Source: Naegleria gruberi (lineage: Eukaryota). From it: 64,000 nucleotides of DNA. The translations under genes were made by a program, and so were the position numbers. Location: the NCBI GenBank assembly GCA_000004985.1, contig GG738860.1. The stretch is one strand, 5' to 3'. This document shows, piece by piece, positions 8,572-56,076 of this stretch (positions are counted from its first letter, which is position 1; each line of letters begins with the position of its first letter). Under the pieces are notes generated by a model, which was not told the origin of the DNA, did not search any database, and saw nothing but the letters and a program-made list of their open reading frames with translations.

Positions 8572-8576
8572 TTATC

Positions 8577-10550: not shown

Positions 10551-10600
10551 NNNNNNNNNNNNNNNNNNNNNNNNNNNNNNNNNNNNNNNNNNNNNNNNNN
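10551..10600. other. Assembly gap (50 N)
   Basis: Run of n. Confidence 1.
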
Positions 10601-21786: not shown

Positions 21787-21888
21787 ACAGATATCTGTTT
21801 GTAATAATATATTCAAAAAGATTCTTCATCAAATAATTCAAATACAAAAAAATAGAACGATCACCATCCACACAATAATATTAACAAA

Positions 21889-26324: not shown

Positions 26325-26404
26325 ATTATGAACACTTAATTATTTCAATTTTACCAAGCAGTATTACAAAGAAAATGAACAATAACATTTAAAAATAGAA
26401 AAAA

Positions 26405-27409: not shown

Positions 27410-27462
27410 TTAGTTTAATAATCTCGTTTATAAAAGTGAATGCAGTTTCAATTTTAAATATA

Positions 27463-28848
27463 TTACATAAATGTTACTTTTTCAAAGTAAACATTGACAA
27501 CCTTGTACTTTGGAGTCAGTTTCTTTTCTCTTTCGAATTGTCTCAAAATAACAAGAGGAGAAAATACTCGTTCTTGTTCTCTTCTTTCCTTTTCAGCTGC
27601 AATAACAGCAACTGATTCCATTCCTTTGTATTCTTCCGCAAGTTGACCAAGAATATTAACATGCTTTCCACCAAATGAAGAGAATGCACTTTCTCCATCA
27701 TCTGAATCTCCATCAGATTCTTCCTCTTCCTCCTTTTTCTTATGGTCATAATAGACCTTTTTCAACTTTTCAGTCAAGGTATTGAAACGATTTCTTCCAC
27801 CATTGACAGCATTTCCTATTGAAGTAGCTGCCATTGCTCCACCTCCGAGACTATTACTTGCTGCGTGAACTGATTGTTTTCTTGAACTAGTTGGTACATC
27901 ATCCTTCTTCTTTTCCTCTTCCCAATCCTGAAGGAAACTCAAAACATCCATCTCATCGTCCTTCTTCTTTTTCTTTTGTGCTTCTGATACAGCCCTTCCT
28001 CTAGTTGGAGTGGTAGCAGTTGCTCCACTAGTCGATGTTGATGTAAATGTATTAATACTTGCTTTTGGAACGCTACCTGATTCTGTAGAGTTCATTGTGG
28101 TTGGTGAAATTGATTTTGGAGAGGATGACATTGTATTCAATTGAGAAAGTTCCTTTTCAAATCCTTGAATACTATCCTTTAATTCCTTCAAATCATGATC
28201 TTCACTAATATCTGTTCCAACCTCTGACAAATCGTCCGTGTCAGAAAAATCACCAGTTCCAGATAATCCAGTTTCTGATATTTTAGAAGTAGAAGATGAT
28301 GTTTTTGATGGAAAAAGTAAATGTAGAGGTGTTTTCACAAGTGCAGATCCCAAACTTGAGTTTGAACTTTCTCTCGGTTTCATATTTAAAAGTGATGAAT
28401 TTTTATCATTTTCATGTTGTTCATTGTTCAATTGATGAGAAATATTAGAGGAAGATGAAGATAATTTCTTTGGAGTGAGCATACTTTTCAATGATGAAAG
28501 ACTTTTCTTTCTTTCTTTTAGGGTATTATTCGAAGAAGAGGAAGAATTAGACGAAATGTTGTTGGACGAATTAGTAGACGAAATGTTAGCAGCATTGGCT
28601 AAATTATTATTTAATTCAGTTAATAGTGCAGAACTACTGGTAATGGTGAGGGTTCCTCGCTTTGTTGTTGTTGTTGTTGTATTTGATTCTTGTGATGAGC
28701 TGTCAGTGTTGGCATTTGACATTGATGAAACGGATTGGGATCTACGATAGGCATCATTTTCGTTTGGTGATGGTGTTGTAGGTGATGTTGGTTTTTCTGG
28801 AATTGTTATTGGTTGAGAAGACGATGACAGCGACTTTCGTTTAAACAT
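27463..28848 (-). CDS. Ser-rich intrinsically disordered protein with a short conserved C-terminal module
   Basis: ATG at 28846-28848. About 60% S/T/N. The C-terminus reads FSSFGGKHVNILGQLAEEYKGMESVAVIAAEKERREQERVFSPLVILRQFEREKKLTPKYKVVNVYFEKVTFM. Its 5' 434 nt recur at 46417..46850. Confidence 0.5.
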   Translation of the reverse strand: MFKRKSLSSSSQPITIPEKPTSPTTPSPNENDAYRRSQSVSSMSNANTDSSSQESNTTTTTTKRGTLTITSSSALLTELNNNLANAANISSTNSSNNISSNSSSSSNNTLKERKKSLSSLKSMLTPKKLSSSSSNISHQLNNEQHENDKNSSLLNMKPRESSNSSLGSALVKTPLHLLFPSKTSSSTSKISETGLSGTGDFSDTDDLSEVGTDISEDHDLKELKDSIQGFEKELSQLNTMSSSPKSISPTTMNSTESGSVPKASINTFTSTSTSGATATTPTRGRAVSEAQKKKKKDDEMDVLSFLQDWEEEKKKDDVPTSSRKQSVHAASNSLGGGAMAATSIGNAVNGGRNRFNTLTEKLKKVYYDHKKKEEEEESDGDSDDGESAFSSFGGKHVNILGQLAEEYKGMESVAVIAAEKERREQERVFSPLVILRQFEREKKLTPKYKVVNVYFEKVTFM

Positions 28849-28982
28849 TTTTTTTATGAAATTTGACAGCTAATGGTTTTGACATTTTATGGATGCATGA
28901 ACTTGGTCATATTTACCAACATACCTTTCTTTCCAATAACAATTTTATTAGAAAATTGAACTAATGTTTTTTAAAATTTTGT

Positions 28983-29032
28983 NNNNNNNNNNNNNNNNNN
29001 NNNNNNNNNNNNNNNNNNNNNNNNNNNNNNNN
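28983..29032. other. Assembly gap (50 N)
   Basis: Run of n. Confidence 1.
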
Positions 29033-29347
29033 GGTAATTTTTCCAACGATTCGAATCGGAATCTATTGGAATTCCGTTTTGAATCCAATCGTGAATCGTG
29101 TTGGAAACACCGAATTCTTGCCATCGGCTGTGAAAACGAGAGAGACGACCACCAAGAGGAATGTTGGCATCATTTATTGTTGTTGTTTGAGTTGGAGGAA
29201 TTTGAAGCGGTTCCACTTGCTTGGTGAGCATTGTTGAATCTTCTGAAGCCTTGATTGTTGGATTGGTAACTATTACCTTGTCCTTGGTTGAAGTTGTTGT
29301 TGTTGTAGTTGTTGTAACCAGCTTGTCTATTATCGTGTCTAGTGGGG
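29033..29347 (-). mobile_element. Second copy of the DIRS-like retroelement fragment (ORF1 tail plus RT start), isolated between two gaps
   Basis: 315 bp, identical apart from 1 mismatch to 10788..11102, in the same orientation. Confidence 0.6.
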
Positions 29348-32300
29348 NNNNNNNNNNNNNNNNNNNNNNNNNNNNNNNNNNNNNNNNNNNNNNNNNNNNN
29401 NNNNNNNNNNNNNNNNNNNNNNNNNNNNNNNNNNNNNNNNNNNNNNNNNNNNNNNNNNNNNNNNNNNNNNNNNNNNNNNNNNNNNNNNNNNNNNNNNNNN
29501 NNNNNNNNNNNNNNNNNNNNNNNNNNNNNNNNNNNNNNNNNNNNNNNNNNNNNNNNNNNNNNNNNNNNNNNNNNNNNNNNNNNNNNNNNNNNNNNNNNNN
29601 NNNNNNNNNNNNNNNNNNNNNNNNNNNNNNNNNNNNNNNNNNNNNNNNNNNNNNNNNNNNNNNNNNNNNNNNNNNNNNNNNNNNNNNNNNNNNNNNNNNN
29701 NNNNNNNNNNNNNNNNNNNNNNNNNNNNNNNNNNNNNNNNNNNNNNNNNNNNNNNNNNNNNNNNNNNNNNNNNNNNNNNNNNNNNNNNNNNNNNNNNNNN
29801 NNNNNNNNNNNNNNNNNNNNNNNNNNNNNNNNNNNNNNNNNNNNNNNNNNNNNNNNNNNNNNNNNNNNNNNNNNNNNNNNNNNNNNNNNNNNNNNNNNNN
29901 NNNNNNNNNNNNNNNNNNNNNNNNNNNNNNNNNNNNNNNNNNNNNNNNNNNNNNNNNNNNNNNNNNNNNNNNNNNNNNNNNNNNNNNNNNNNNNNNNNNN
30001 NNNNNNNNNNNNNNNNNNNNNNNNNNNNNNNNNNNNNNNNNNNNNNNNNNNNNNNNNNNNNNNNNNNNNNNNNNNNNNNNNNNNNNNNNNNNNNNNNNNN
30101 NNNNNNNNNNNNNNNNNNNNNNNNNNNNNNNNNNNNNNNNNNNNNNNNNNNNNNNNNNNNNNNNNNNNNNNNNNNNNNNNNNNNNNNNNNNNNNNNNNNN
30201 NNNNNNNNNNNNNNNNNNNNNNNNNNNNNNNNNNNNNNNNNNNNNNNNNNNNNNNNNNNNNNNNNNNNNNNNNNNNNNNNNNNNNNNNNNNNNNNNNNNN
30301 NNNNNNNNNNNNNNNNNNNNNNNNNNNNNNNNNNNNNNNNNNNNNNNNNNNNNNNNNNNNNNNNNNNNNNNNNNNNNNNNNNNNNNNNNNNNNNNNNNNN
30401 NNNNNNNNNNNNNNNNNNNNNNNNNNNNNNNNNNNNNNNNNNNNNNNNNNNNNNNNNNNNNNNNNNNNNNNNNNNNNNNNNNNNNNNNNNNNNNNNNNNN
30501 NNNNNNNNNNNNNNNNNNNNNNNNNNNNNNNNNNNNNNNNNNNNNNNNNNNNNNNNNNNNNNNNNNNNNNNNNNNNNNNNNNNNNNNNNNNNNNNNNNNN
30601 NNNNNNNNNNNNNNNNNNNNNNNNNNNNNNNNNNNNNNNNNNNNNNNNNNNNNNNNNNNNNNNNNNNNNNNNNNNNNNNNNNNNNNNNNNNNNNNNNNNN
30701 NNNNNNNNNNNNNNNNNNNNNNNNNNNNNNNNNNNNNNNNNNNNNNNNNNNNNNNNNNNNNNNNNNNNNNNNNNNNNNNNNNNNNNNNNNNNNNNNNNNN
30801 NNNNNNNNNNNNNNNNNNNNNNNNNNNNNNNNNNNNNNNNNNNNNNNNNNNNNNNNNNNNNNNNNNNNNNNNNNNNNNNNNNNNNNNNNNNNNNNNNNNN
30901 NNNNNNNNNNNNNNNNNNNNNNNNNNNNNNNNNNNNNNNNNNNNNNNNNNNNNNNNNNNNNNNNNNNNNNNNNNNNNNNNNNNNNNNNNNNNNNNNNNNN
31001 NNNNNNNNNNNNNNNNNNNNNNNNNNNNNNNNNNNNNNNNNNNNNNNNNNNNNNNNNNNNNNNNNNNNNNNNNNNNNNNNNNNNNNNNNNNNNNNNNNNN
31101 NNNNNNNNNNNNNNNNNNNNNNNNNNNNNNNNNNNNNNNNNNNNNNNNNNNNNNNNNNNNNNNNNNNNNNNNNNNNNNNNNNNNNNNNNNNNNNNNNNNN
31201 NNNNNNNNNNNNNNNNNNNNNNNNNNNNNNNNNNNNNNNNNNNNNNNNNNNNNNNNNNNNNNNNNNNNNNNNNNNNNNNNNNNNNNNNNNNNNNNNNNNN
31301 NNNNNNNNNNNNNNNNNNNNNNNNNNNNNNNNNNNNNNNNNNNNNNNNNNNNNNNNNNNNNNNNNNNNNNNNNNNNNNNNNNNNNNNNNNNNNNNNNNNN
31401 NNNNNNNNNNNNNNNNNNNNNNNNNNNNNNNNNNNNNNNNNNNNNNNNNNNNNNNNNNNNNNNNNNNNNNNNNNNNNNNNNNNNNNNNNNNNNNNNNNNN
31501 NNNNNNNNNNNNNNNNNNNNNNNNNNNNNNNNNNNNNNNNNNNNNNNNNNNNNNNNNNNNNNNNNNNNNNNNNNNNNNNNNNNNNNNNNNNNNNNNNNNN
31601 NNNNNNNNNNNNNNNNNNNNNNNNNNNNNNNNNNNNNNNNNNNNNNNNNNNNNNNNNNNNNNNNNNNNNNNNNNNNNNNNNNNNNNNNNNNNNNNNNNNN
31701 NNNNNNNNNNNNNNNNNNNNNNNNNNNNNNNNNNNNNNNNNNNNNNNNNNNNNNNNNNNNNNNNNNNNNNNNNNNNNNNNNNNNNNNNNNNNNNNNNNNN
31801 NNNNNNNNNNNNNNNNNNNNNNNNNNNNNNNNNNNNNNNNNNNNNNNNNNNNNNNNNNNNNNNNNNNNNNNNNNNNNNNNNNNNNNNNNNNNNNNNNNNN
31901 NNNNNNNNNNNNNNNNNNNNNNNNNNNNNNNNNNNNNNNNNNNNNNNNNNNNNNNNNNNNNNNNNNNNNNNNNNNNNNNNNNNNNNNNNNNNNNNNNNNN
32001 NNNNNNNNNNNNNNNNNNNNNNNNNNNNNNNNNNNNNNNNNNNNNNNNNNNNNNNNNNNNNNNNNNNNNNNNNNNNNNNNNNNNNNNNNNNNNNNNNNNN
32101 NNNNNNNNNNNNNNNNNNNNNNNNNNNNNNNNNNNNNNNNNNNNNNNNNNNNNNNNNNNNNNNNNNNNNNNNNNNNNNNNNNNNNNNNNNNNNNNNNNNN
32201 NNNNNNNNNNNNNNNNNNNNNNNNNNNNNNNNNNNNNNNNNNNNNNNNNNNNNNNNNNNNNNNNNNNNNNNNNNNNNNNNNNNNNNNNNNNNNNNNNNNN

Positions 32301-35300
32301 NNNNNNNNNNNNNNNNNNNNNNNNNNNNNNNNNNNNNNNNNNNNNNNNNNNNNNNNNNNNNNNNNNNNNNNNNNNNNNNNNNNNNNNNNNNNNNNNNNNN
32401 NNNNNNNNNNNNNNNNNNNNNNNNNNNNNNNNNNNNNNNNNNNNNNNNNNNNNNNNNNNNNNNNNNNNNNNNNNNNNNNNNNNNNNNNNNNNNNNNNNNN
32501 NNNNNNNNNNNNNNNNNNNNNNNNNNNNNNNNNNNNNNNNNNNNNNNNNNNNNNNNNNNNNNNNNNNNNNNNNNNNNNNNNNNNNNNNNNNNNNNNNNNN
32601 NNNNNNNNNNNNNNNNNNNNNNNNNNNNNNNNNNNNNNNNNNNNNNNNNNNNNNNNNNNNNNNNNNNNNNNNNNNNNNNNNNNNNNNNNNNNNNNNNNNN
32701 NNNNNNNNNNNNNNNNNNNNNNNNNNNNNNNNNNNNNNNNNNNNNNNNNNNNNNNNNNNNNNNNNNNNNNNNNNNNNNNNNNNNNNNNNNNNNNNNNNNN
32801 NNNNNNNNNNNNNNNNNNNNNNNNNNNNNNNNNNNNNNNNNNNNNNNNNNNNNNNNNNNNNNNNNNNNNNNNNNNNNNNNNNNNNNNNNNNNNNNNNNNN
32901 NNNNNNNNNNNNNNNNNNNNNNNNNNNNNNNNNNNNNNNNNNNNNNNNNNNNNNNNNNNNNNNNNNNNNNNNNNNNNNNNNNNNNNNNNNNNNNNNNNNN
33001 NNNNNNNNNNNNNNNNNNNNNNNNNNNNNNNNNNNNNNNNNNNNNNNNNNNNNNNNNNNNNNNNNNNNNNNNNNNNNNNNNNNNNNNNNNNNNNNNNNNN
33101 NNNNNNNNNNNNNNNNNNNNNNNNNNNNNNNNNNNNNNNNNNNNNNNNNNNNNNNNNNNNNNNNNNNNNNNNNNNNNNNNNNNNNNNNNNNNNNNNNNNN
33201 NNNNNNNNNNNNNNNNNNNNNNNNNNNNNNNNNNNNNNNNNNNNNNNNNNNNNNNNNNNNNNNNNNNNNNNNNNNNNNNNNNNNNNNNNNNNNNNNNNNN
33301 NNNNNNNNNNNNNNNNNNNNNNNNNNNNNNNNNNNNNNNNNNNNNNNNNNNNNNNNNNNNNNNNNNNNNNNNNNNNNNNNNNNNNNNNNNNNNNNNNNNN
33401 NNNNNNNNNNNNNNNNNNNNNNNNNNNNNNNNNNNNNNNNNNNNNNNNNNNNNNNNNNNNNNNNNNNNNNNNNNNNNNNNNNNNNNNNNNNNNNNNNNNN
33501 NNNNNNNNNNNNNNNNNNNNNNNNNNNNNNNNNNNNNNNNNNNNNNNNNNNNNNNNNNNNNNNNNNNNNNNNNNNNNNNNNNNNNNNNNNNNNNNNNNNN
33601 NNNNNNNNNNNNNNNNNNNNNNNNNNNNNNNNNNNNNNNNNNNNNNNNNNNNNNNNNNNNNNNNNNNNNNNNNNNNNNNNNNNNNNNNNNNNNNNNNNNN
33701 NNNNNNNNNNNNNNNNNNNNNNNNNNNNNNNNNNNNNNNNNNNNNNNNNNNNNNNNNNNNNNNNNNNNNNNNNNNNNNNNNNNNNNNNNNNNNNNNNNNN
33801 NNNNNNNNNNNNNNNNNNNNNNNNNNNNNNNNNNNNNNNNNNNNNNNNNNNNNNNNNNNNNNNNNNNNNNNNNNNNNNNNNNNNNNNNNNNNNNNNNNNN
33901 NNNNNNNNNNNNNNNNNNNNNNNNNNNNNNNNNNNNNNNNNNNNNNNNNNNNNNNNNNNNNNNNNNNNNNNNNNNNNNNNNNNNNNNNNNNNNNNNNNNN
34001 NNNNNNNNNNNNNNNNNNNNNNNNNNNNNNNNNNNNNNNNNNNNNNNNNNNNNNNNNNNNNNNNNNNNNNNNNNNNNNNNNNNNNNNNNNNNNNNNNNNN
34101 NNNNNNNNNNNNNNNNNNNNNNNNNNNNNNNNNNNNNNNNNNNNNNNNNNNNNNNNNNNNNNNNNNNNNNNNNNNNNNNNNNNNNNNNNNNNNNNNNNNN
34201 NNNNNNNNNNNNNNNNNNNNNNNNNNNNNNNNNNNNNNNNNNNNNNNNNNNNNNNNNNNNNNNNNNNNNNNNNNNNNNNNNNNNNNNNNNNNNNNNNNNN
34301 NNNNNNNNNNNNNNNNNNNNNNNNNNNNNNNNNNNNNNNNNNNNNNNNNNNNNNNNNNNNNNNNNNNNNNNNNNNNNNNNNNNNNNNNNNNNNNNNNNNN
34401 NNNNNNNNNNNNNNNNNNNNNNNNNNNNNNNNNNNNNNNNNNNNNNNNNNNNNNNNNNNNNNNNNNNNNNNNNNNNNNNNNNNNNNNNNNNNNNNNNNNN
34501 NNNNNNNNNNNNNNNNNNNNNNNNNNNNNNNNNNNNNNNNNNNNNNNNNNNNNNNNNNNNNNNNNNNNNNNNNNNNNNNNNNNNNNNNNNNNNNNNNNNN
34601 NNNNNNNNNNNNNNNNNNNNNNNNNNNNNNNNNNNNNNNNNNNNNNNNNNNNNNNNNNNNNNNNNNNNNNNNNNNNNNNNNNNNNNNNNNNNNNNNNNNN
34701 NNNNNNNNNNNNNNNNNNNNNNNNNNNNNNNNNNNNNNNNNNNNNNNNNNNNNNNNNNNNNNNNNNNNNNNNNNNNNNNNNNNNNNNNNNNNNNNNNNNN
34801 NNNNNNNNNNNNNNNNNNNNNNNNNNNNNNNNNNNNNNNNNNNNNNNNNNNNNNNNNNNNNNNNNNNNNNNNNNNNNNNNNNNNNNNNNNNNNNNNNNNN
34901 NNNNNNNNNNNNNNNNNNNNNNNNNNNNNNNNNNNNNNNNNNNNNNNNNNNNNNNNNNNNNNNNNNNNNNNNNNNNNNNNNNNNNNNNNNNNNNNNNNNN
35001 NNNNNNNNNNNNNNNNNNNNNNNNNNNNNNNNNNNNNNNNNNNNNNNNNNNNNNNNNNNNNNNNNNNNNNNNNNNNNNNNNNNNNNNNNNNNNNNNNNNN
35101 NNNNNNNNNNNNNNNNNNNNNNNNNNNNNNNNNNNNNNNNNNNNNNNNNNNNNNNNNNNNNNNNNNNNNNNNNNNNNNNNNNNNNNNNNNNNNNNNNNNN
35201 NNNNNNNNNNNNNNNNNNNNNNNNNNNNNNNNNNNNNNNNNNNNNNNNNNNNNNNNNNNNNNNNNNNNNNNNNNNNNNNNNNNNNNNNNNNNNNNNNNNN

Positions 35301-38300
35301 NNNNNNNNNNNNNNNNNNNNNNNNNNNNNNNNNNNNNNNNNNNNNNNNNNNNNNNNNNNNNNNNNNNNNNNNNNNNNNNNNNNNNNNNNNNNNNNNNNNN
35401 NNNNNNNNNNNNNNNNNNNNNNNNNNNNNNNNNNNNNNNNNNNNNNNNNNNNNNNNNNNNNNNNNNNNNNNNNNNNNNNNNNNNNNNNNNNNNNNNNNNN
35501 NNNNNNNNNNNNNNNNNNNNNNNNNNNNNNNNNNNNNNNNNNNNNNNNNNNNNNNNNNNNNNNNNNNNNNNNNNNNNNNNNNNNNNNNNNNNNNNNNNNN
35601 NNNNNNNNNNNNNNNNNNNNNNNNNNNNNNNNNNNNNNNNNNNNNNNNNNNNNNNNNNNNNNNNNNNNNNNNNNNNNNNNNNNNNNNNNNNNNNNNNNNN
35701 NNNNNNNNNNNNNNNNNNNNNNNNNNNNNNNNNNNNNNNNNNNNNNNNNNNNNNNNNNNNNNNNNNNNNNNNNNNNNNNNNNNNNNNNNNNNNNNNNNNN
35801 NNNNNNNNNNNNNNNNNNNNNNNNNNNNNNNNNNNNNNNNNNNNNNNNNNNNNNNNNNNNNNNNNNNNNNNNNNNNNNNNNNNNNNNNNNNNNNNNNNNN
35901 NNNNNNNNNNNNNNNNNNNNNNNNNNNNNNNNNNNNNNNNNNNNNNNNNNNNNNNNNNNNNNNNNNNNNNNNNNNNNNNNNNNNNNNNNNNNNNNNNNNN
36001 NNNNNNNNNNNNNNNNNNNNNNNNNNNNNNNNNNNNNNNNNNNNNNNNNNNNNNNNNNNNNNNNNNNNNNNNNNNNNNNNNNNNNNNNNNNNNNNNNNNN
36101 NNNNNNNNNNNNNNNNNNNNNNNNNNNNNNNNNNNNNNNNNNNNNNNNNNNNNNNNNNNNNNNNNNNNNNNNNNNNNNNNNNNNNNNNNNNNNNNNNNNN
36201 NNNNNNNNNNNNNNNNNNNNNNNNNNNNNNNNNNNNNNNNNNNNNNNNNNNNNNNNNNNNNNNNNNNNNNNNNNNNNNNNNNNNNNNNNNNNNNNNNNNN
36301 NNNNNNNNNNNNNNNNNNNNNNNNNNNNNNNNNNNNNNNNNNNNNNNNNNNNNNNNNNNNNNNNNNNNNNNNNNNNNNNNNNNNNNNNNNNNNNNNNNNN
36401 NNNNNNNNNNNNNNNNNNNNNNNNNNNNNNNNNNNNNNNNNNNNNNNNNNNNNNNNNNNNNNNNNNNNNNNNNNNNNNNNNNNNNNNNNNNNNNNNNNNN
36501 NNNNNNNNNNNNNNNNNNNNNNNNNNNNNNNNNNNNNNNNNNNNNNNNNNNNNNNNNNNNNNNNNNNNNNNNNNNNNNNNNNNNNNNNNNNNNNNNNNNN
36601 NNNNNNNNNNNNNNNNNNNNNNNNNNNNNNNNNNNNNNNNNNNNNNNNNNNNNNNNNNNNNNNNNNNNNNNNNNNNNNNNNNNNNNNNNNNNNNNNNNNN
36701 NNNNNNNNNNNNNNNNNNNNNNNNNNNNNNNNNNNNNNNNNNNNNNNNNNNNNNNNNNNNNNNNNNNNNNNNNNNNNNNNNNNNNNNNNNNNNNNNNNNN
36801 NNNNNNNNNNNNNNNNNNNNNNNNNNNNNNNNNNNNNNNNNNNNNNNNNNNNNNNNNNNNNNNNNNNNNNNNNNNNNNNNNNNNNNNNNNNNNNNNNNNN
36901 NNNNNNNNNNNNNNNNNNNNNNNNNNNNNNNNNNNNNNNNNNNNNNNNNNNNNNNNNNNNNNNNNNNNNNNNNNNNNNNNNNNNNNNNNNNNNNNNNNNN
37001 NNNNNNNNNNNNNNNNNNNNNNNNNNNNNNNNNNNNNNNNNNNNNNNNNNNNNNNNNNNNNNNNNNNNNNNNNNNNNNNNNNNNNNNNNNNNNNNNNNNN
37101 NNNNNNNNNNNNNNNNNNNNNNNNNNNNNNNNNNNNNNNNNNNNNNNNNNNNNNNNNNNNNNNNNNNNNNNNNNNNNNNNNNNNNNNNNNNNNNNNNNNN
37201 NNNNNNNNNNNNNNNNNNNNNNNNNNNNNNNNNNNNNNNNNNNNNNNNNNNNNNNNNNNNNNNNNNNNNNNNNNNNNNNNNNNNNNNNNNNNNNNNNNNN
37301 NNNNNNNNNNNNNNNNNNNNNNNNNNNNNNNNNNNNNNNNNNNNNNNNNNNNNNNNNNNNNNNNNNNNNNNNNNNNNNNNNNNNNNNNNNNNNNNNNNNN
37401 NNNNNNNNNNNNNNNNNNNNNNNNNNNNNNNNNNNNNNNNNNNNNNNNNNNNNNNNNNNNNNNNNNNNNNNNNNNNNNNNNNNNNNNNNNNNNNNNNNNN
37501 NNNNNNNNNNNNNNNNNNNNNNNNNNNNNNNNNNNNNNNNNNNNNNNNNNNNNNNNNNNNNNNNNNNNNNNNNNNNNNNNNNNNNNNNNNNNNNNNNNNN
37601 NNNNNNNNNNNNNNNNNNNNNNNNNNNNNNNNNNNNNNNNNNNNNNNNNNNNNNNNNNNNNNNNNNNNNNNNNNNNNNNNNNNNNNNNNNNNNNNNNNNN
37701 NNNNNNNNNNNNNNNNNNNNNNNNNNNNNNNNNNNNNNNNNNNNNNNNNNNNNNNNNNNNNNNNNNNNNNNNNNNNNNNNNNNNNNNNNNNNNNNNNNNN
37801 NNNNNNNNNNNNNNNNNNNNNNNNNNNNNNNNNNNNNNNNNNNNNNNNNNNNNNNNNNNNNNNNNNNNNNNNNNNNNNNNNNNNNNNNNNNNNNNNNNNN
37901 NNNNNNNNNNNNNNNNNNNNNNNNNNNNNNNNNNNNNNNNNNNNNNNNNNNNNNNNNNNNNNNNNNNNNNNNNNNNNNNNNNNNNNNNNNNNNNNNNNNN
38001 NNNNNNNNNNNNNNNNNNNNNNNNNNNNNNNNNNNNNNNNNNNNNNNNNNNNNNNNNNNNNNNNNNNNNNNNNNNNNNNNNNNNNNNNNNNNNNNNNNNN
38101 NNNNNNNNNNNNNNNNNNNNNNNNNNNNNNNNNNNNNNNNNNNNNNNNNNNNNNNNNNNNNNNNNNNNNNNNNNNNNNNNNNNNNNNNNNNNNNNNNNNN
38201 NNNNNNNNNNNNNNNNNNNNNNNNNNNNNNNNNNNNNNNNNNNNNNNNNNNNNNNNNNNNNNNNNNNNNNNNNNNNNNNNNNNNNNNNNNNNNNNNNNNN

Positions 38301-41300
38301 NNNNNNNNNNNNNNNNNNNNNNNNNNNNNNNNNNNNNNNNNNNNNNNNNNNNNNNNNNNNNNNNNNNNNNNNNNNNNNNNNNNNNNNNNNNNNNNNNNNN
38401 NNNNNNNNNNNNNNNNNNNNNNNNNNNNNNNNNNNNNNNNNNNNNNNNNNNNNNNNNNNNNNNNNNNNNNNNNNNNNNNNNNNNNNNNNNNNNNNNNNNN
38501 NNNNNNNNNNNNNNNNNNNNNNNNNNNNNNNNNNNNNNNNNNNNNNNNNNNNNNNNNNNNNNNNNNNNNNNNNNNNNNNNNNNNNNNNNNNNNNNNNNNN
38601 NNNNNNNNNNNNNNNNNNNNNNNNNNNNNNNNNNNNNNNNNNNNNNNNNNNNNNNNNNNNNNNNNNNNNNNNNNNNNNNNNNNNNNNNNNNNNNNNNNNN
38701 NNNNNNNNNNNNNNNNNNNNNNNNNNNNNNNNNNNNNNNNNNNNNNNNNNNNNNNNNNNNNNNNNNNNNNNNNNNNNNNNNNNNNNNNNNNNNNNNNNNN
38801 NNNNNNNNNNNNNNNNNNNNNNNNNNNNNNNNNNNNNNNNNNNNNNNNNNNNNNNNNNNNNNNNNNNNNNNNNNNNNNNNNNNNNNNNNNNNNNNNNNNN
38901 NNNNNNNNNNNNNNNNNNNNNNNNNNNNNNNNNNNNNNNNNNNNNNNNNNNNNNNNNNNNNNNNNNNNNNNNNNNNNNNNNNNNNNNNNNNNNNNNNNNN
39001 NNNNNNNNNNNNNNNNNNNNNNNNNNNNNNNNNNNNNNNNNNNNNNNNNNNNNNNNNNNNNNNNNNNNNNNNNNNNNNNNNNNNNNNNNNNNNNNNNNNN
39101 NNNNNNNNNNNNNNNNNNNNNNNNNNNNNNNNNNNNNNNNNNNNNNNNNNNNNNNNNNNNNNNNNNNNNNNNNNNNNNNNNNNNNNNNNNNNNNNNNNNN
39201 NNNNNNNNNNNNNNNNNNNNNNNNNNNNNNNNNNNNNNNNNNNNNNNNNNNNNNNNNNNNNNNNNNNNNNNNNNNNNNNNNNNNNNNNNNNNNNNNNNNN
39301 NNNNNNNNNNNNNNNNNNNNNNNNNNNNNNNNNNNNNNNNNNNNNNNNNNNNNNNNNNNNNNNNNNNNNNNNNNNNNNNNNNNNNNNNNNNNNNNNNNNN
39401 NNNNNNNNNNNNNNNNNNNNNNNNNNNNNNNNNNNNNNNNNNNNNNNNNNNNNNNNNNNNNNNNNNNNNNNNNNNNNNNNNNNNNNNNNNNNNNNNNNNN
39501 NNNNNNNNNNNNNNNNNNNNNNNNNNNNNNNNNNNNNNNNNNNNNNNNNNNNNNNNNNNNNNNNNNNNNNNNNNNNNNNNNNNNNNNNNNNNNNNNNNNN
39601 NNNNNNNNNNNNNNNNNNNNNNNNNNNNNNNNNNNNNNNNNNNNNNNNNNNNNNNNNNNNNNNNNNNNNNNNNNNNNNNNNNNNNNNNNNNNNNNNNNNN
39701 NNNNNNNNNNNNNNNNNNNNNNNNNNNNNNNNNNNNNNNNNNNNNNNNNNNNNNNNNNNNNNNNNNNNNNNNNNNNNNNNNNNNNNNNNNNNNNNNNNNN
39801 NNNNNNNNNNNNNNNNNNNNNNNNNNNNNNNNNNNNNNNNNNNNNNNNNNNNNNNNNNNNNNNNNNNNNNNNNNNNNNNNNNNNNNNNNNNNNNNNNNNN
39901 NNNNNNNNNNNNNNNNNNNNNNNNNNNNNNNNNNNNNNNNNNNNNNNNNNNNNNNNNNNNNNNNNNNNNNNNNNNNNNNNNNNNNNNNNNNNNNNNNNNN
40001 NNNNNNNNNNNNNNNNNNNNNNNNNNNNNNNNNNNNNNNNNNNNNNNNNNNNNNNNNNNNNNNNNNNNNNNNNNNNNNNNNNNNNNNNNNNNNNNNNNNN
40101 NNNNNNNNNNNNNNNNNNNNNNNNNNNNNNNNNNNNNNNNNNNNNNNNNNNNNNNNNNNNNNNNNNNNNNNNNNNNNNNNNNNNNNNNNNNNNNNNNNNN
40201 NNNNNNNNNNNNNNNNNNNNNNNNNNNNNNNNNNNNNNNNNNNNNNNNNNNNNNNNNNNNNNNNNNNNNNNNNNNNNNNNNNNNNNNNNNNNNNNNNNNN
40301 NNNNNNNNNNNNNNNNNNNNNNNNNNNNNNNNNNNNNNNNNNNNNNNNNNNNNNNNNNNNNNNNNNNNNNNNNNNNNNNNNNNNNNNNNNNNNNNNNNNN
40401 NNNNNNNNNNNNNNNNNNNNNNNNNNNNNNNNNNNNNNNNNNNNNNNNNNNNNNNNNNNNNNNNNNNNNNNNNNNNNNNNNNNNNNNNNNNNNNNNNNNN
40501 NNNNNNNNNNNNNNNNNNNNNNNNNNNNNNNNNNNNNNNNNNNNNNNNNNNNNNNNNNNNNNNNNNNNNNNNNNNNNNNNNNNNNNNNNNNNNNNNNNNN
40601 NNNNNNNNNNNNNNNNNNNNNNNNNNNNNNNNNNNNNNNNNNNNNNNNNNNNNNNNNNNNNNNNNNNNNNNNNNNNNNNNNNNNNNNNNNNNNNNNNNNN
40701 NNNNNNNNNNNNNNNNNNNNNNNNNNNNNNNNNNNNNNNNNNNNNNNNNNNNNNNNNNNNNNNNNNNNNNNNNNNNNNNNNNNNNNNNNNNNNNNNNNNN
40801 NNNNNNNNNNNNNNNNNNNNNNNNNNNNNNNNNNNNNNNNNNNNNNNNNNNNNNNNNNNNNNNNNNNNNNNNNNNNNNNNNNNNNNNNNNNNNNNNNNNN
40901 NNNNNNNNNNNNNNNNNNNNNNNNNNNNNNNNNNNNNNNNNNNNNNNNNNNNNNNNNNNNNNNNNNNNNNNNNNNNNNNNNNNNNNNNNNNNNNNNNNNN
41001 NNNNNNNNNNNNNNNNNNNNNNNNNNNNNNNNNNNNNNNNNNNNNNNNNNNNNNNNNNNNNNNNNNNNNNNNNNNNNNNNNNNNNNNNNNNNNNNNNNNN
41101 NNNNNNNNNNNNNNNNNNNNNNNNNNNNNNNNNNNNNNNNNNNNNNNNNNNNNNNNNNNNNNNNNNNNNNNNNNNNNNNNNNNNNNNNNNNNNNNNNNNN
41201 NNNNNNNNNNNNNNNNNNNNNNNNNNNNNNNNNNNNNNNNNNNNNNNNNNNNNNNNNNNNNNNNNNNNNNNNNNNNNNNNNNNNNNNNNNNNNNNNNNNN

Positions 41301-44300
41301 NNNNNNNNNNNNNNNNNNNNNNNNNNNNNNNNNNNNNNNNNNNNNNNNNNNNNNNNNNNNNNNNNNNNNNNNNNNNNNNNNNNNNNNNNNNNNNNNNNNN
41401 NNNNNNNNNNNNNNNNNNNNNNNNNNNNNNNNNNNNNNNNNNNNNNNNNNNNNNNNNNNNNNNNNNNNNNNNNNNNNNNNNNNNNNNNNNNNNNNNNNNN
41501 NNNNNNNNNNNNNNNNNNNNNNNNNNNNNNNNNNNNNNNNNNNNNNNNNNNNNNNNNNNNNNNNNNNNNNNNNNNNNNNNNNNNNNNNNNNNNNNNNNNN
41601 NNNNNNNNNNNNNNNNNNNNNNNNNNNNNNNNNNNNNNNNNNNNNNNNNNNNNNNNNNNNNNNNNNNNNNNNNNNNNNNNNNNNNNNNNNNNNNNNNNNN
41701 NNNNNNNNNNNNNNNNNNNNNNNNNNNNNNNNNNNNNNNNNNNNNNNNNNNNNNNNNNNNNNNNNNNNNNNNNNNNNNNNNNNNNNNNNNNNNNNNNNNN
41801 NNNNNNNNNNNNNNNNNNNNNNNNNNNNNNNNNNNNNNNNNNNNNNNNNNNNNNNNNNNNNNNNNNNNNNNNNNNNNNNNNNNNNNNNNNNNNNNNNNNN
41901 NNNNNNNNNNNNNNNNNNNNNNNNNNNNNNNNNNNNNNNNNNNNNNNNNNNNNNNNNNNNNNNNNNNNNNNNNNNNNNNNNNNNNNNNNNNNNNNNNNNN
42001 NNNNNNNNNNNNNNNNNNNNNNNNNNNNNNNNNNNNNNNNNNNNNNNNNNNNNNNNNNNNNNNNNNNNNNNNNNNNNNNNNNNNNNNNNNNNNNNNNNNN
42101 NNNNNNNNNNNNNNNNNNNNNNNNNNNNNNNNNNNNNNNNNNNNNNNNNNNNNNNNNNNNNNNNNNNNNNNNNNNNNNNNNNNNNNNNNNNNNNNNNNNN
42201 NNNNNNNNNNNNNNNNNNNNNNNNNNNNNNNNNNNNNNNNNNNNNNNNNNNNNNNNNNNNNNNNNNNNNNNNNNNNNNNNNNNNNNNNNNNNNNNNNNNN
42301 NNNNNNNNNNNNNNNNNNNNNNNNNNNNNNNNNNNNNNNNNNNNNNNNNNNNNNNNNNNNNNNNNNNNNNNNNNNNNNNNNNNNNNNNNNNNNNNNNNNN
42401 NNNNNNNNNNNNNNNNNNNNNNNNNNNNNNNNNNNNNNNNNNNNNNNNNNNNNNNNNNNNNNNNNNNNNNNNNNNNNNNNNNNNNNNNNNNNNNNNNNNN
42501 NNNNNNNNNNNNNNNNNNNNNNNNNNNNNNNNNNNNNNNNNNNNNNNNNNNNNNNNNNNNNNNNNNNNNNNNNNNNNNNNNNNNNNNNNNNNNNNNNNNN
42601 NNNNNNNNNNNNNNNNNNNNNNNNNNNNNNNNNNNNNNNNNNNNNNNNNNNNNNNNNNNNNNNNNNNNNNNNNNNNNNNNNNNNNNNNNNNNNNNNNNNN
42701 NNNNNNNNNNNNNNNNNNNNNNNNNNNNNNNNNNNNNNNNNNNNNNNNNNNNNNNNNNNNNNNNNNNNNNNNNNNNNNNNNNNNNNNNNNNNNNNNNNNN
42801 NNNNNNNNNNNNNNNNNNNNNNNNNNNNNNNNNNNNNNNNNNNNNNNNNNNNNNNNNNNNNNNNNNNNNNNNNNNNNNNNNNNNNNNNNNNNNNNNNNNN
42901 NNNNNNNNNNNNNNNNNNNNNNNNNNNNNNNNNNNNNNNNNNNNNNNNNNNNNNNNNNNNNNNNNNNNNNNNNNNNNNNNNNNNNNNNNNNNNNNNNNNN
43001 NNNNNNNNNNNNNNNNNNNNNNNNNNNNNNNNNNNNNNNNNNNNNNNNNNNNNNNNNNNNNNNNNNNNNNNNNNNNNNNNNNNNNNNNNNNNNNNNNNNN
43101 NNNNNNNNNNNNNNNNNNNNNNNNNNNNNNNNNNNNNNNNNNNNNNNNNNNNNNNNNNNNNNNNNNNNNNNNNNNNNNNNNNNNNNNNNNNNNNNNNNNN
43201 NNNNNNNNNNNNNNNNNNNNNNNNNNNNNNNNNNNNNNNNNNNNNNNNNNNNNNNNNNNNNNNNNNNNNNNNNNNNNNNNNNNNNNNNNNNNNNNNNNNN
43301 NNNNNNNNNNNNNNNNNNNNNNNNNNNNNNNNNNNNNNNNNNNNNNNNNNNNNNNNNNNNNNNNNNNNNNNNNNNNNNNNNNNNNNNNNNNNNNNNNNNN
43401 NNNNNNNNNNNNNNNNNNNNNNNNNNNNNNNNNNNNNNNNNNNNNNNNNNNNNNNNNNNNNNNNNNNNNNNNNNNNNNNNNNNNNNNNNNNNNNNNNNNN
43501 NNNNNNNNNNNNNNNNNNNNNNNNNNNNNNNNNNNNNNNNNNNNNNNNNNNNNNNNNNNNNNNNNNNNNNNNNNNNNNNNNNNNNNNNNNNNNNNNNNNN
43601 NNNNNNNNNNNNNNNNNNNNNNNNNNNNNNNNNNNNNNNNNNNNNNNNNNNNNNNNNNNNNNNNNNNNNNNNNNNNNNNNNNNNNNNNNNNNNNNNNNNN
43701 NNNNNNNNNNNNNNNNNNNNNNNNNNNNNNNNNNNNNNNNNNNNNNNNNNNNNNNNNNNNNNNNNNNNNNNNNNNNNNNNNNNNNNNNNNNNNNNNNNNN
43801 NNNNNNNNNNNNNNNNNNNNNNNNNNNNNNNNNNNNNNNNNNNNNNNNNNNNNNNNNNNNNNNNNNNNNNNNNNNNNNNNNNNNNNNNNNNNNNNNNNNN
43901 NNNNNNNNNNNNNNNNNNNNNNNNNNNNNNNNNNNNNNNNNNNNNNNNNNNNNNNNNNNNNNNNNNNNNNNNNNNNNNNNNNNNNNNNNNNNNNNNNNNN
44001 NNNNNNNNNNNNNNNNNNNNNNNNNNNNNNNNNNNNNNNNNNNNNNNNNNNNNNNNNNNNNNNNNNNNNNNNNNNNNNNNNNNNNNNNNNNNNNNNNNNN
44101 NNNNNNNNNNNNNNNNNNNNNNNNNNNNNNNNNNNNNNNNNNNNNNNNNNNNNNNNNNNNNNNNNNNNNNNNNNNNNNNNNNNNNNNNNNNNNNNNNNNN
44201 NNNNNNNNNNNNNNNNNNNNNNNNNNNNNNNNNNNNNNNNNNNNNNNNNNNNNNNNNNNNNNNNNNNNNNNNNNNNNNNNNNNNNNNNNNNNNNNNNNNN

Positions 44301-46416
44301 NNNNNNNNNNNNNNNNNNNNNNNNNNNNNNNNNNNNNNNNNNNNNNNNNNNNNNNNNNNNNNNNNNNNNNNNNNNNNNNNNNNNNNNNNNNNNNNNNNNN
44401 NNNNNNNNNNNNNNNNNNNNNNNNNNNNNNNNNNNNNNNNNNNNNNNNNNNNNNNNNNNNNNNNNNNNNNNNNNNNNNNNNNNNNNNNNNNNNNNNNNNN
44501 NNNNNNNNNNNNNNNNNNNNNNNNNNNNNNNNNNNNNNNNNNNNNNNNNNNNNNNNNNNNNNNNNNNNNNNNNNNNNNNNNNNNNNNNNNNNNNNNNNNN
44601 NNNNNNNNNNNNNNNNNNNNNNNNNNNNNNNNNNNNNNNNNNNNNNNNNNNNNNNNNNNNNNNNNNNNNNNNNNNNNNNNNNNNNNNNNNNNNNNNNNNN
44701 NNNNNNNNNNNNNNNNNNNNNNNNNNNNNNNNNNNNNNNNNNNNNNNNNNNNNNNNNNNNNNNNNNNNNNNNNNNNNNNNNNNNNNNNNNNNNNNNNNNN
44801 NNNNNNNNNNNNNNNNNNNNNNNNNNNNNNNNNNNNNNNNNNNNNNNNNNNNNNNNNNNNNNNNNNNNNNNNNNNNNNNNNNNNNNNNNNNNNNNNNNNN
44901 NNNNNNNNNNNNNNNNNNNNNNNNNNNNNNNNNNNNNNNNNNNNNNNNNNNNNNNNNNNNNNNNNNNNNNNNNNNNNNNNNNNNNNNNNNNNNNNNNNNN
45001 NNNNNNNNNNNNNNNNNNNNNNNNNNNNNNNNNNNNNNNNNNNNNNNNNNNNNNNNNNNNNNNNNNNNNNNNNNNNNNNNNNNNNNNNNNNNNNNNNNNN
45101 NNNNNNNNNNNNNNNNNNNNNNNNNNNNNNNNNNNNNNNNNNNNNNNNNNNNNNNNNNNNNNNNNNNNNNNNNNNNNNNNNNNNNNNNNNNNNNNNNNNN
45201 NNNNNNNNNNNNNNNNNNNNNNNNNNNNNNNNNNNNNNNNNNNNNNNNNNNNNNNNNNNNNNNNNNNNNNNNNNNNNNNNNNNNNNNNNNNNNNNNNNNN
45301 NNNNNNNNNNNNNNNNNNNNNNNNNNNNNNNNNNNNNNNNNNNNNNNNNNNNNNNNNNNNNNNNNNNNNNNNNNNNNNNNNNNNNNNNNNNNNNNNNNNN
45401 NNNNNNNNNNNNNNNNNNNNNNNNNNNNNNNNNNNNNNNNNNNNNNNNNNNNNNNNNNNNNNNNNNNNNNNNNNNNNNNNNNNNNNNNNNNNNNNNNNNN
45501 NNNNNNNNNNNNNNNNNNNNNNNNNNNNNNNNNNNNNNNNNNNNNNNNNNNNNNNNNNNNNNNNNNNNNNNNNNNNNNNNNNNNNNNNNNNNNNNNNNNN
45601 NNNNNNNNNNNNNNNNNNNNNNNNNNNNNNNNNNNNNNNNNNNNNNNNNNNNNNNNNNNNNNNNNNNNNNNNNNNNNNNNNNNNNNNNNNNNNNNNNNNN
45701 NNNNNNNNNNNNNNNNNNNNNNNNNNNNNNNNNNNNNNNNNNNNNNNNNNNNNNNNNNNNNNNNNNNNNNNNNNNNNNNNNNNNNNNNNNNNNNNNNNNN
45801 NNNNNNNNNNNNNNNNNNNNNNNNNNNNNNNNNNNNNNNNNNNNNNNNNNNNNNNNNNNNNNNNNNNNNNNNNNNNNNNNNNNNNNNNNNNNNNNNNNNN
45901 NNNNNNNNNNNNNNNNNNNNNNNNNNNNNNNNNNNNNNNNNNNNNNNNNNNNNNNNNNNNNNNNNNNNNNNNNNNNNNNNNNNNNNNNNNNNNNNNNNNN
46001 NNNNNNNNNNNNNNNNNNNNNNNNNNNNNNNNNNNNNNNNNNNNNNNNNNNNNNNNNNNNNNNNNNNNNNNNNNNNNNNNNNNNNNNNNNNNNNNNNNNN
46101 NNNNNNNNNNNNNNNNNNNNNNNNNNNNNNNNNNNNNNNNNNNNNNNNNNNNNNNNNNNNNNNNNNNNNNNNNNNNNNNNNNNNNNNNNNNNNNNNNNNN
46201 NNNNNNNNNNNNNNNNNNNNNNNNNNNNNNNNNNNNNNNNNNNNNNNNNNNNNNNNNNNNNNNNNNNNNNNNNNNNNNNNNNNNNNNNNNNNNNNNNNNN
46301 NNNNNNNNNNNNNNNNNNNNNNNNNNNNNNNNNNNNNNNNNNNNNNNNNNNNNNNNNNNNNNNNNNNNNNNNNNNNNNNNNNNNNNNNNNNNNNNNNNNN
46401 NNNNNNNNNNNNNNNN
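29348..46416. other. Assembly gap (17,069 N)
   Basis: Run of n. All very long track ORFs across it are artefacts. Confidence 1.
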
Positions 46417-46995
46417 TGTTGTTCATTGTTCAATTGATGAGAAATATTAGAGGAAGATGAAGATAATTTCTTTGGAGTGAGCATACTTTTCAATGATGAA
46501 AGACTTTTCTTTCTTTCTTTTAGGGTATTATTCGAAGAAGAGGAAGAATTGGACGAATTGTTGTTGGACGAATTACTAGACGAAATGTTAGCAGCATTGG
46601 CTAAATTATTATTTAATTCAGTTAATAGTGCAGAACTACTGGTAATGGTGAGGGTTCCTCGCTTTGTTGTTGTTGTTGTTGTATTTGATTCTTGTGATGA
46701 GCTGTCAGTGTTGGCATTTGACATTGATGAAACGGATTGGGATCTACGATAGGCATCATTTTCGTTTGGTGATGGTGTTGTAGGTGATGTTGGTTTTTCT
46801 GGAATTGTTATTGGTTGAGAAGACGATGACAGCGACTTTCGTTTAAACATTTTTTTTTATGAAATTTGACAGCTAATGGTTTTGACATTTTATGAATGCA
46901 TAAAGAGATGAACTTGGTCATTCTTCCAAATATTTACCAACAGGCCTTTCTTCTTCTTTCTAATAAAAATTGAACTAGTGTTTTTTTAAAATTTT
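46417..46995 (-). repeat. Diverged duplicate of 28415..28982 (5' part of the Ser-rich gene plus its upstream region); partial CDS 46437..46850 (ATG at 46848-46850) with the body in the gap
   Basis: Coding part is about 99% identical (a few SNPs, e.g. the product reads ...ISSSNSSNNNSS... against ...ISSTNSSNNISS... in copy 1). The upstream non-coding part has an 8-bp indel and several substitutions. Confidence 0.6.
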
Positions 46996-47153
46996 GTAAA
47001 GTTTTACAACAGATTTGTTTTCCTTCATGTTCGTTCAACAAATATGTTCAAATATAATTGAAAACTATTTCTCCAAATTGATTCTTCAACTATTTGTAAA
47101 AAATTATAATTCTTTGATTTTAAATTTTAAAAAAAAATTCAAAACACTTCAAA

Positions 47154-51110: not shown

Positions 51111-51556
51111 ATAAACAATGTAGCGAATCAGTTTACAATGTAATTAAGTTGCGAATTGTGGCTCTTTCCAAAGAAGCAATTAAATTATTCTGGTCAATTA
51201 CCTATTATGAAAAGAACCTATTTTTCAATGAATGTTTGAATCGTTTATTACTTAGTTATTAACAGTCCTACGTACAACGGAAAATGTGAAAATACCAAAT
51301 TAAAATGTTTATTGGGCTCTCCCTTTATCCTATTAACCATTTGTTATTTATCCATGCTACATACGAAAATAATGGTCAGCGTAATAGATGAATTTCAACA
51401 ACTTTGACATCATACCCATTCCACTTTCCTATTCACTGTTGTGTAGGAACAATCGTATACAATTCGTACAGTGGCTAGTTGGTCAAAAATGAACAAGAAT
51501 CAAAACATGATGAATCTTCTCTTACCTGAATTTAAATAAATTTAACTAATGCAATT

Positions 51557-52951: not shown

Positions 52952-53055
52952 TATTTTTTTTGTTTTGGTGATCGAATCGGGAAAATGGAGTTATTGGCAA
53001 GAAGCTGTTCCCTGTGTGACTATTCAAAACTAATATGTTTGAATATTAATCACCA

Positions 53056-53138: not shown

Positions 53139-53142
53139 TTCC

Positions 53143-56075: not shown

Positions 56076-56076
56076 T

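What the first reader, a model, noticed from the sequence alone, without database searches (positions are those of the whole stretch)
28415..46995. Near-identical sequence on both sides of the 17-kb gap: tandem paralog or uncollapsed haplotype
The last 568 nt before the gap (28415..28982) reappear immediately after it (46417..46995). That is the 5' 434 nt of the Ser-rich CDS plus its upstream region. Coding divergence is about 1%, while upstream divergence is higher and includes an 8-bp indel. After the gap the sequence runs on into the 1318-aa gene. Before the gap it is cut off by N's and followed by a 315-bp retroelement island. Either the locus carries two copies of the Ser-rich gene with a retroelement-rich spacer, or the scaffolder placed two alleles in tandem and the gap is fictitious.
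Basis: seen in the sequence. Interest (0 to 1): 0.6.

Follow-up and report, generated by a model that had tools for sequence, protein, structure and literature searches.

The report
False duplication from overlapping contig ends
The repeated 570 bases on either side of the 17-kb gap are real sequence, but they are most likely two alleles of one Naegleria gruberi locus that the scaffolder laid out one after the other, so the gap and the "second gene copy" are probably assembly artefacts.

Summary
Window 28415-28982 re-appears at 46417-46997. The 434 coding bases differ at 3 positions, and the upstream part is rich in indels.

The window is Naegleria gruberi, which the literature describes as a heterozygous diploid. 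The Ser-rich gene is NAEGRDRAFT_48015.

It copies window 10788-11102 at 314/315 identity. The 17,069-N gap also nearly equals the 17,312 bases that separate the two matching anchor points inside the contig 10601-28982.

So 29033-46997 is a shadow of 10788-28982 that holds only 896 real bases. Both repeats stop exactly at contig ends. This layout is a contained stray contig plus overlapping contig ends, the signature of false segmental duplication described by Kelley and Salzberg (2010).

- **Best reading (about 0.68):** one locus. The gap is the footprint of a contig already in the scaffold, and the two versions are alleles.
- **Main rival (about 0.2):** a real 18.2-kb near-identical tandem duplication whose interior was collapsed by the assembler.

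Only reads and mate pairs, long reads or PCR can decide between them. Interest is low.

The parts
10551..10600 (.). Gap 1, exactly 50 N, between contig c1 (1-10550) and contig c2 (10601-28982). It is a placeholder-sized gap.
   Evidence: c2 starts inside an RT-adjacent ORF, while c1 ends in an unrelated ORF. So 50 N does not measure the missing sequence.
10788..11102 (.). The segment of c2 that the 315-bp island duplicates. It lies in a retroelement-like ORF on the minus strand.
   Evidence: 314/315 identical to 29033-29347. The only difference is 11092 A against 29337 G.
10603..11166 (-). Retroelement-like ORF of 188 aa that ends in the start of a reverse-transcriptase region (PKKGSDQFRFILDLRKVN). 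It is cut by gap 1.
   Evidence: One search gives the ORF. Searches show 75% identity to P0004, which carries PF00078 (RVT_1). Pfam itself gave no hit on this short piece.
27463..28848 (-). Complete Ser-rich gene, 461 aa plus stop codon, identical to N. gruberi NAEGRDRAFT_48015 (XP_002678865.1).
28415..28982 (-). Repeat copy A, the last 568 nt of contig c2. It holds the first 434 nt of the CDS (28415-28848) plus 134 nt of upstream sequence.
28983..29032 (.). Gap 2, exactly 50 N, between c2 and the island c3. The supposed junction of a tandem duplication would lie here and is not sequenced.
29033..29347 (.). Contig c3, the 315-bp 'island'. It is a duplicated contained contig, wholly contained in c2 at 99.7% identity.
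29348..46416 (.). Gap 3, 17,069 N. In c2 the distance between the island's homologue and the start of repeat copy A (11103-28414) is 17,312 nt.
46417..46997 (-). Repeat copy B, the first 581 nt of contig c4. It holds the first 434 nt of the CDS (46417-46850) plus 147 nt of upstream sequence. The reading frame is intact.
46851..47153 (.). 303-nt intergenic region between the Ser-rich ATG (copy B) and the ATG of the divergent 1318-aa gene. It is contiguous sequence within c4.
47154..51107 (+). 1318-aa ORF with no Pfam match. It is the right-hand neighbour of the Ser-rich gene.

Best explanation
This is a false duplication made during scaffolding of a Sanger-era draft of a heterozygous diploid, Naegleria gruberi. 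The genome most likely has one locus: helicase, 334-aa gene, Ser-rich gene (minus strand), about 300 nt of intergenic DNA, then the 1318-aa gene (plus strand).

Contig c2 (10601-28982) ends in one allele of the Ser-rich 5' end and promoter region. Contig c4 (46417 onwards) begins with the other allele of the same 570 nt. The two were not merged because the intergenic part differs by several indels.

A 315-nt stray contig, c3, is a near-identical re-assembly of 10788-11102. That stretch lies in retroelement-like (possibly repeated) sequence, where stray contigs might be expected.

Inferred step: the scaffolder ordered contigs by their estimated start positions (c2 at about 10.6 kb, c3 at about 10.8-11.0 kb, c4 at about 28.4 kb). 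It wrote the negative c2-to-c3 distance as its floor of 50 N. It wrote the c3-to-c4 distance, about 17.3 kb and estimated as 17,069, as a run of N.

On this reading the 17-kb gap is the footprint of c2 itself, and the scaffold is inflated by about 18 kb.

Shown: the sequence relationships and the arithmetic. Inferred: the allelic origin and the ordering mechanism.
For: 1. The homology starts at the first base after the N run (46417) and ends at the last base before an N run (28982). No biological boundary of a duplication is visible.
2. c3 is contained in c2 over 100% of its length at 99.7% identity. It lies in the same orientation and order as the c2/c4 overlap. The offsets are 18,245 and 18,002.
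3. Gap 3 is 17,069 N, against 17,312 nt between the two anchor points inside c2, a difference of 1.4%. If the gap size were unrelated and could be anywhere from 0 to 40 kb, a match this close would have roughly a 1% chance (my estimate).
4. No other inter-contig repeat exists in the window.
5. The layout is the one Kelley and Salzberg screen for: duplicated overlapping contigs with one duplicated contained contig in between. In their survey, mate pairs judged 96% (chicken), 97% (chimpanzee) and 80% (cow) of such overlaps to be mis-assemblies.
6. The organism is N. gruberi. The literature calls it mainly a heterozygous diploid with mosaic heterozygosity. Two real sequence versions of one locus are therefore expected.
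7. The junction that a tandem duplication would require (28982 joined to retroelement sequence) is not sequenced; 50 N sit there.
8. Only one ortholog was found in N. lovaniensis and one in Willaertia, and no second N. gruberi protein was found.
Against: No reads, depth or mate pairs could be examined, so copy number is untested.

A real, young 18.2-kb tandem duplication with a collapsed interior predicts the same sequence picture and the same gap arithmetic.

If c2 and c4 truly overlap, many short-insert mate pairs must be stretched by 18 kb in the published scaffold. That is a gross error for a scaffolder to accept.

c2 stops only 16 nt after the last allelic difference, while c4 reaches 433 nt beyond the first indel. 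This asymmetry is not explained. It would also fit c2 ending at a repeat boundary.

Gap 1 shows that a 50-N gap can hide kilobases, so gap 2 could hide the rest of a retroelement.

The assembler's rule for negative gaps is inferred from the window, not documented here.
Confidence: 0.68

Rival explanations
1. A real, recent tandem duplication of an 18.2-kb (or larger) unit, roughly 10788-28982 (retroelement 5' part through the Ser-rich promoter). The assembler collapsed the near-identical interior of copy 2 onto c2. Only the ends of copy 2 (c3 and the head of c4) were assembled separately.
For: The two offsets are equal (18,245 and 18,002), and the gap size matches the interior length. c3 sits directly after c2, as expected if short-insert clones link the end of copy 1 to the start of copy 2. 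c2 ends abruptly at 28982, as it would at the edge of repeat sequence. The two versions are clean, clearly different sequences, so both exist in the DNA.
Against: The junction is unsequenced, although a junction between unique sequences should assemble. No boundary of the duplication is visible, because every homology end is a contig end. The interior would have to be close enough to collapse over 17 kb, while the promoter region differs by 8 indel events in about 140 nt. In other draft assemblies, this same layout was a mis-assembly in 80-97% of cases in three genomes and 8 of 22 in dog. Relatives have one copy.
Confidence: 0.2
2. One locus, but with a heterozygous (or real) retroelement insertion at about 28982 in the haplotype represented by c2. 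The island would be part of that inserted element. The c4 head comes from the haplotype without the insertion. The gap would be partly real, though much shorter than 17 kb.
For: c2 ends abruptly and is followed by retroelement-like sequence. The island's only known match is to an element of the same kind in the window. Heterozygosity is documented for the species.
Against: The agreement of 17,069 N with the 17,312-nt span inside c2 would be a coincidence. The island is 99.7% identical to one particular copy, 10788-11102, and no other near-identical copy is seen. The next best protein match is 75%. No junction sequence exists.
Confidence: 0.07
3. Two paralogous copies, full or partial, of the Ser-rich gene separated by an unrelated, retroelement-rich 17-kb spacer.
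For: Two distinct sequence versions exist, and a retroelement-like fragment lies between them.
Against: The only spacer sequence available is a copy of 10788-11102, not novel DNA. The gap length mirrors c2. No second protein was found in the N. gruberi proteome or in relatives.
Confidence: 0.05

Closest known systems
False segmental duplications from haplotype mis-assembly: 'duplicated overlapping contigs' (DOC) and 'duplicated contained contigs' (DCC) of Kelley and Salzberg, Genome Biol 2010 (PMC2864568)
   Same: The tail of c2 and the head of c4 overlap by more than 300 bp, starting at the very first base of c4 and ending at the last base of c2. A single small contig lies between them and is fully contained in the neighbouring contig at over 95% identity. 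The organism is a heterozygous diploid sequenced with Sanger reads. The differences are SNPs and small indels of the kind that paper harvests as missed polymorphisms.
   Different: The defining mate-pair test could not be run. Whole-overlap identity (93%) is below their 95% cut-off. Only the 482-column part that ends 87 nt from the end of c2 passes, at 99.0%. The displacement is large (18 kb) and the written gap is large, whereas most of their cases are small local shifts. The assembler here is not one of the three they studied.
Collapsed recent tandem segmental duplication in a draft assembly
   Same: Two direct copies with an equal offset of about 18 kb. Only the ends of the second copy are assembled. 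The gap is about as long as the interior of the first copy.
   Different: There is no junction sequence, no visible duplication boundary and no depth evidence. The promoter region is much more diverged than a collapsible interior would be.
False gene gains from duplication errors in assemblies (Ko et al., Genome Biol 2022, PMC9516828; seen only in the search list)
   Same: A spurious partial second copy of a gene appears next to a gap in an older assembly of a diploid.
   Different: I did not read that paper. It concerns vertebrate assemblies.

Membership tests
Duplicated overlapping contigs (DOC; Kelley and Salzberg 2010) | Alignment of more than 300 bp at more than 95% identity between the ends of two nearby contigs, lying within 300 bp of both contig ends and consistent with an end-to-end layout. 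| tested here: met
   28415-28895 against 46417-46898 has 5 differences in 482 columns (99.0%). It starts at base 1 of c4 and ends 87 nt from the end of c2. The full 591-column alignment reaches both ends but is only 93% identical.
Duplicated overlapping contigs (DOC; Kelley and Salzberg 2010) | The contigs are adjacent, or separated by a single contig that is itself a duplicated contained contig. | tested here: met
   Only c3 (29033-29347) lies between c2 and c4, and it is contained in c2.
Duplicated overlapping contigs (DOC; Kelley and Salzberg 2010) | Mate-pair distances fit the library insert sizes better when the contigs are merged than in the published layout. | not testable with these tools
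   No reads or read placements are available. The only proxy is that the written gap (17,069) matches the distance implied by superimposing c3 and c4 on c2 (17,312).
Duplicated contained contig (DCC; Kelley and Salzberg 2010) | More than 93% of the contig's length aligns at more than 95% identity to a nearby contig. | tested here: met
   315/315 nt aligned, 314 identical, to 10788-11102 in c2, 18.2 kb away on the same strand.
True tandem segmental duplication | A sequenced junction joining the end of copy 1 to the start of copy 2. | tested here: not met
   The position where the junction should be is 50 N (28983-29032). c2 aligns to c4 up to its last base, and c3 aligns to c2 from its first base.
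True tandem segmental duplication | Doubled read depth over the collapsed unit, or two fully assembled copies. | not testable with these tools
   No read data. The second copy is 95% N.
True tandem segmental duplication | A homology boundary inside contiguous sequence, where similarity ends while the sequence continues. | tested here: not met
   All four homology ends coincide with contig ends.
Retroelement (the identity claimed for the 315-bp island) | Encodes, or is contiguous with, a reverse-transcriptase domain. | tested here: inconclusive
   Pfam gives no hit on the island or on the 188-aa ORF. The ORF 10603-11166 is 75% identical to P0004, whose precomputed annotation is PF00078 RVT_1, and it ends in a PKKG...FR..D.R.LN-type motif. 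The RT domain itself is lost in gap 1.
Allelic pair in a heterozygous diploid | The organism is diploid and heterozygous. | tested here: met
   Organism identified as N. gruberi. The literature says 'mainly a heterozygous diploid' (PMC9928731) and 'mosaic heterozygosity ... in Naegleria gruberi' (PMC6201504). This is taken from the literature, not measured here.
Allelic pair in a heterozygous diploid | Each version has about half the genomic read depth and the same flanks on both sides. | not testable with these tools
   No reads. The right flank of the c2 version and the left flank of the c4 version are not assembled.

The most novel reading that the evidence does not exclude
N. gruberi NEG-M really carries a young tandem duplication of about 18.2 kb, possibly heterozygous. 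It would span a retroelement fragment, several housekeeping genes (including the helicase) and the Ser-rich gene, and the assembler collapsed it. The 17-kb gap would then hide a full second gene set.
Probability: 0.2. Interest if true: 0.25.

Novelty: not a real feature. Interest (0 to 1): 0.1.

Why it matters
This matters mainly for data hygiene. If the duplication is false, this N. gruberi scaffold is about 18 kb too long. It also carries a phantom truncated copy of NAEGRDRAFT_48015 and hides a true gene adjacency. The Ser-rich gene and the 1318-aa gene would share a bidirectional intergenic region of about 300 nt.

Paralog counts, synteny comparisons and read mapping would all be affected, because reads would split between the two versions. 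The two versions do give a small, clean sample of allelic variation in strain NEG-M: 0.7% in coding sequence and many indels in the promoter region.

The case also gives a practical rule for a scan of this kind. Before interpreting a repeat that touches a gap, check whether the other small contigs in the gap are copies of nearby sequence, and whether the gap length equals the length of a neighbouring contig.

Tried and rejected
- **Exact-protein look-ups.** I looked up the Ser-rich protein, the 334-aa neighbour, P0001 and P0004 to find other assemblies of the locus. None is on record.
- **Metagenome scans.** One scan used a gapped DNA pattern that matches both promoter variants. A second used the protein. 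Neither found anything. No independent assembly of this locus could be obtained.
- **Synteny with N. lovaniensis (L001).** The ortholog sits next to the same helicase. Its upstream neighbour is a proteasome gene, with no match anywhere in the window. Synteny therefore cannot say what lies upstream in N. gruberi, and it does not discriminate between the models.
- **Overlap test at gap 1.** The contig ends there do not overlap.
- **Sequencing error in a read tail** as the source of the differences. Rejected, because the differences include clean 8-, 9- and 10-nt indels in otherwise normal sequence.
Withdrawn, because the '1318-aa gene' is a separate plus-strand gene.
- **The Cell 2010 genome paper and a 2011 review.** Neither is held in the library. 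The assembler, the libraries and the gap convention are therefore from memory or inference.
- **Newer long-read N. gruberi assembly.** A literature search found none.
- **Pfam.** No domain on the island, the Ser-rich protein or the 1318-aa protein.
Full report
**What is in the sequence.** The window consists of four contigs separated by three N runs:
- c1: 1-10550
- 50 N
- c2: 10601-28982
- 50 N
- c3: 29033-29347
- 17,069 N
- c4: 46417-64000

The last 568 nt of c2 (28415-28982) align with the first 581 nt of c4 (46417-46997). 550 of 591 columns are identical, and BLAST gives 93.4% with E = 0.

The shared block holds the first 434 nt of a minus-strand ORF plus its upstream region. The ATG is at 28848 in c2 and at 46850 in c4.

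The coding part differs at three clustered positions (28549, 28556, 28574), two of them non-synonymous. The frame is intact in both versions.

The upstream 134/147 nt differ by 5 substitutions and 8 indel events of 1, 8, 10, 2, 9, 1, 1 and 1 nt.

The left version continues leftwards into the complete 461-aa gene (27463-28848). The right version continues rightwards, through 303 nt of intergenic DNA, into a divergent 1318-aa ORF (47154-51107).

**Whose genome it is.** The 461-aa product is 100% identical to Naegleria gruberi NAEGRDRAFT_48015 (XP_002678865.1, EFC46121.1), on a record of 536,960 bp.

Only two other relatives exist among about 5.8 billion proteins. One is in N. lovaniensis (43% identity) and one is in Willaertia magna. 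No second N. gruberi protein was found.

The N. gruberi assembly has 1,977 contigs in 784 scaffolds (PMC6125883). From memory, not verified here, it is a JGI Sanger shotgun assembly.

Naegleria is described as 'mainly a heterozygous diploid' (PMC9928731). 'Mosaic heterozygosity' is attributed to the N. gruberi genome paper (PMC6201504). Two real versions of a single locus are therefore expected in this data set.

**The key new observation.** The 315-bp island between the two gaps is not independent spacer sequence. It matches window 10788-11102, inside c2, over its full length with one mismatch (11092 A against 29337 G). It lies on the same strand at an offset of 18,245.

The Ser-rich repeat has an offset of 18,002. 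Inside c2, the distance from the end of the island's homologue to the start of the Ser-rich repeat (11103-28414) is 17,312 nt. The gap between c3 and c4 is 17,069 N, a difference of 1.4%.

The stretch 29033-46997 is thus a shadow of 10788-28982 in which only 896 bases are real sequence. All four homology ends coincide with contig ends. A self-comparison of the window finds no other inter-contig repeat.

**What the island is.** On the minus strand, 10603-11166 is an ORF. It runs from a Thr-rich linker into a motif typical of the start of a reverse transcriptase (PKKGSDQFRFILDLRKVN).

Pfam finds nothing on this short piece. However, it is 75% identical to a database protein whose remaining part is annotated PF00078 RVT_1. 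'Retroelement-like' is therefore reasonable.

The ORF is cut at 10601 by the first 50-N gap, and the sequence left of that gap is an unrelated ORF. A 50-N gap in this assembly therefore does not measure what is missing. I take 50 N to be a floor or placeholder value, which is an inference.

**Most likely explanation.** The picture follows without any coincidence under three assumptions:
- c3 and the head of c4 belong on top of c2.
- The scaffolder ordered contigs by their estimated start positions (c2 at about 10.6 kb, c3 at about 10.8-11.0 kb, c4 at about 28.4 kb).
- The scaffolder then wrote gaps between consecutive contigs. The negative c2-to-c3 distance became 50 N, and the c3-to-c4 distance became about 17 kb of N.

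The c2 tail and the c4 head would then be the two alleles of one promoter-proximal region, kept apart by the indels. c3 would be a stray contig shorter than a typical Sanger read (possibly a single read) from retroelement-like sequence.

This is the configuration that Kelley and Salzberg (2010) screen for as false segmental duplication. They look for 'duplicated overlapping contigs' separated at most by one 'duplicated contained contig'. Their sequence criteria are met here by c3 (100% contained, 99.7% identical). They are also met by the 482-column part of the overlap (99.0% identical, within 87 nt of the end of c2).

In their survey, mate pairs judged 96%, 97% and 80% of such overlaps to be mis-assemblies in chicken, chimpanzee and cow, and 8 of 22 in dog. 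I give this reading about 0.68.

**Main rival.** The rival is a real, young tandem duplication of 18.2 kb or more, whose near-identical interior was collapsed onto c2. It predicts the same offsets and the same gap arithmetic. It also explains naturally why c3 follows c2.

Four points count against it:
- The junction is unsequenced (50 N).
- No duplication boundary lies inside contiguous sequence.
- A 17-kb interior similar enough to collapse contrasts with a promoter region carrying 8 indel events in about 140 nt.
- Relatives have a single copy.

I give it about 0.2. Two further variants get about 0.07 and 0.05. One is a heterozygous retroelement insertion at 28982. Both must treat the match between the gap length and the c2 span as chance.

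**Weak points of the favoured reading.** No reads, depth or mate pairs were available.

An 18-kb stretch of many mate pairs would be a gross error for a scaffolder to accept.

c2 ends only 16 nt beyond the last difference, whereas c4 reaches 433 nt beyond the first indel. I cannot explain this asymmetry, and it would also fit c2 ending at a repeat edge.

The gap convention is inferred from three gaps in one window.

**Comparative context.** In N. lovaniensis the ortholog lies next to the same helicase, but its upstream neighbour is a proteasome subunit gene. Nothing from that side matches the window. Synteny does not help to decide between the models.

Attempts to find any other assembly of the locus failed.

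**Verdict.** Its most probable cause is an assembly and scaffolding artefact of a well-described kind, not biology. It is worth fixing in the assembly but is of low scientific interest. The decisive tests are simple: read depth and mate pairs, two PCRs, or a single long read.

Noticed in passing
window 10551-11166: The first 50-N gap cuts a retroelement-like ORF just as its reverse-transcriptase region begins. The contig on the other side (ORF 9665-10549, minus strand) is unrelated. Either kilobases of element are hidden behind '50 N', or the c1-c2 join is itself doubtful.
   Followed up: partly
window 26405-27409 (+) versus L001 11569-11767: N. gruberi has a 334-aa ORF between the helicase and the Ser-rich gene, with a weak sub-threshold Arylesterase hit. 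In N. lovaniensis the two orthologs are only about 200 nt apart, and tblastx finds nothing matching this ORF. This is a lineage-specific gene gain or loss.
   Followed up: partly
window 27460-27690 (-) and L001 11342-11572: The Ser-rich protein is conserved only at its C-terminal end, about 77 aa at 73% identity with N. lovaniensis by tblastx. The Ser/Asn-rich N-terminal two thirds are poorly conserved. The family seems restricted to Naegleria and Willaertia and has no Pfam domain.
   Followed up: partly
window 46851-47153 versus L001 8776-10000: There is a synteny break upstream of the Ser-rich gene. N. lovaniensis has a proteasome subunit gene there. N. gruberi has a 1318-aa ORF with no Pfam match.
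   Followed up: partly
window 6930-7495 (within ORF 6800-8476, minus strand): Degenerate internal tandem repeats, 65-67% identical at offsets of about 105 and 213 nt. This suggests a repeat-domain protein.
   Followed up: no
window 21889-26324 (+): The helicase gene is orthologous to the AAA_11/AAA_12 protein of N. lovaniensis. It is split into two ORFs, 21889-23151 and 23211-26324, probably by a short intron of about 60 nt. Its C-terminal third is a Gln/Asn-rich low-complexity tail.
   Followed up: no
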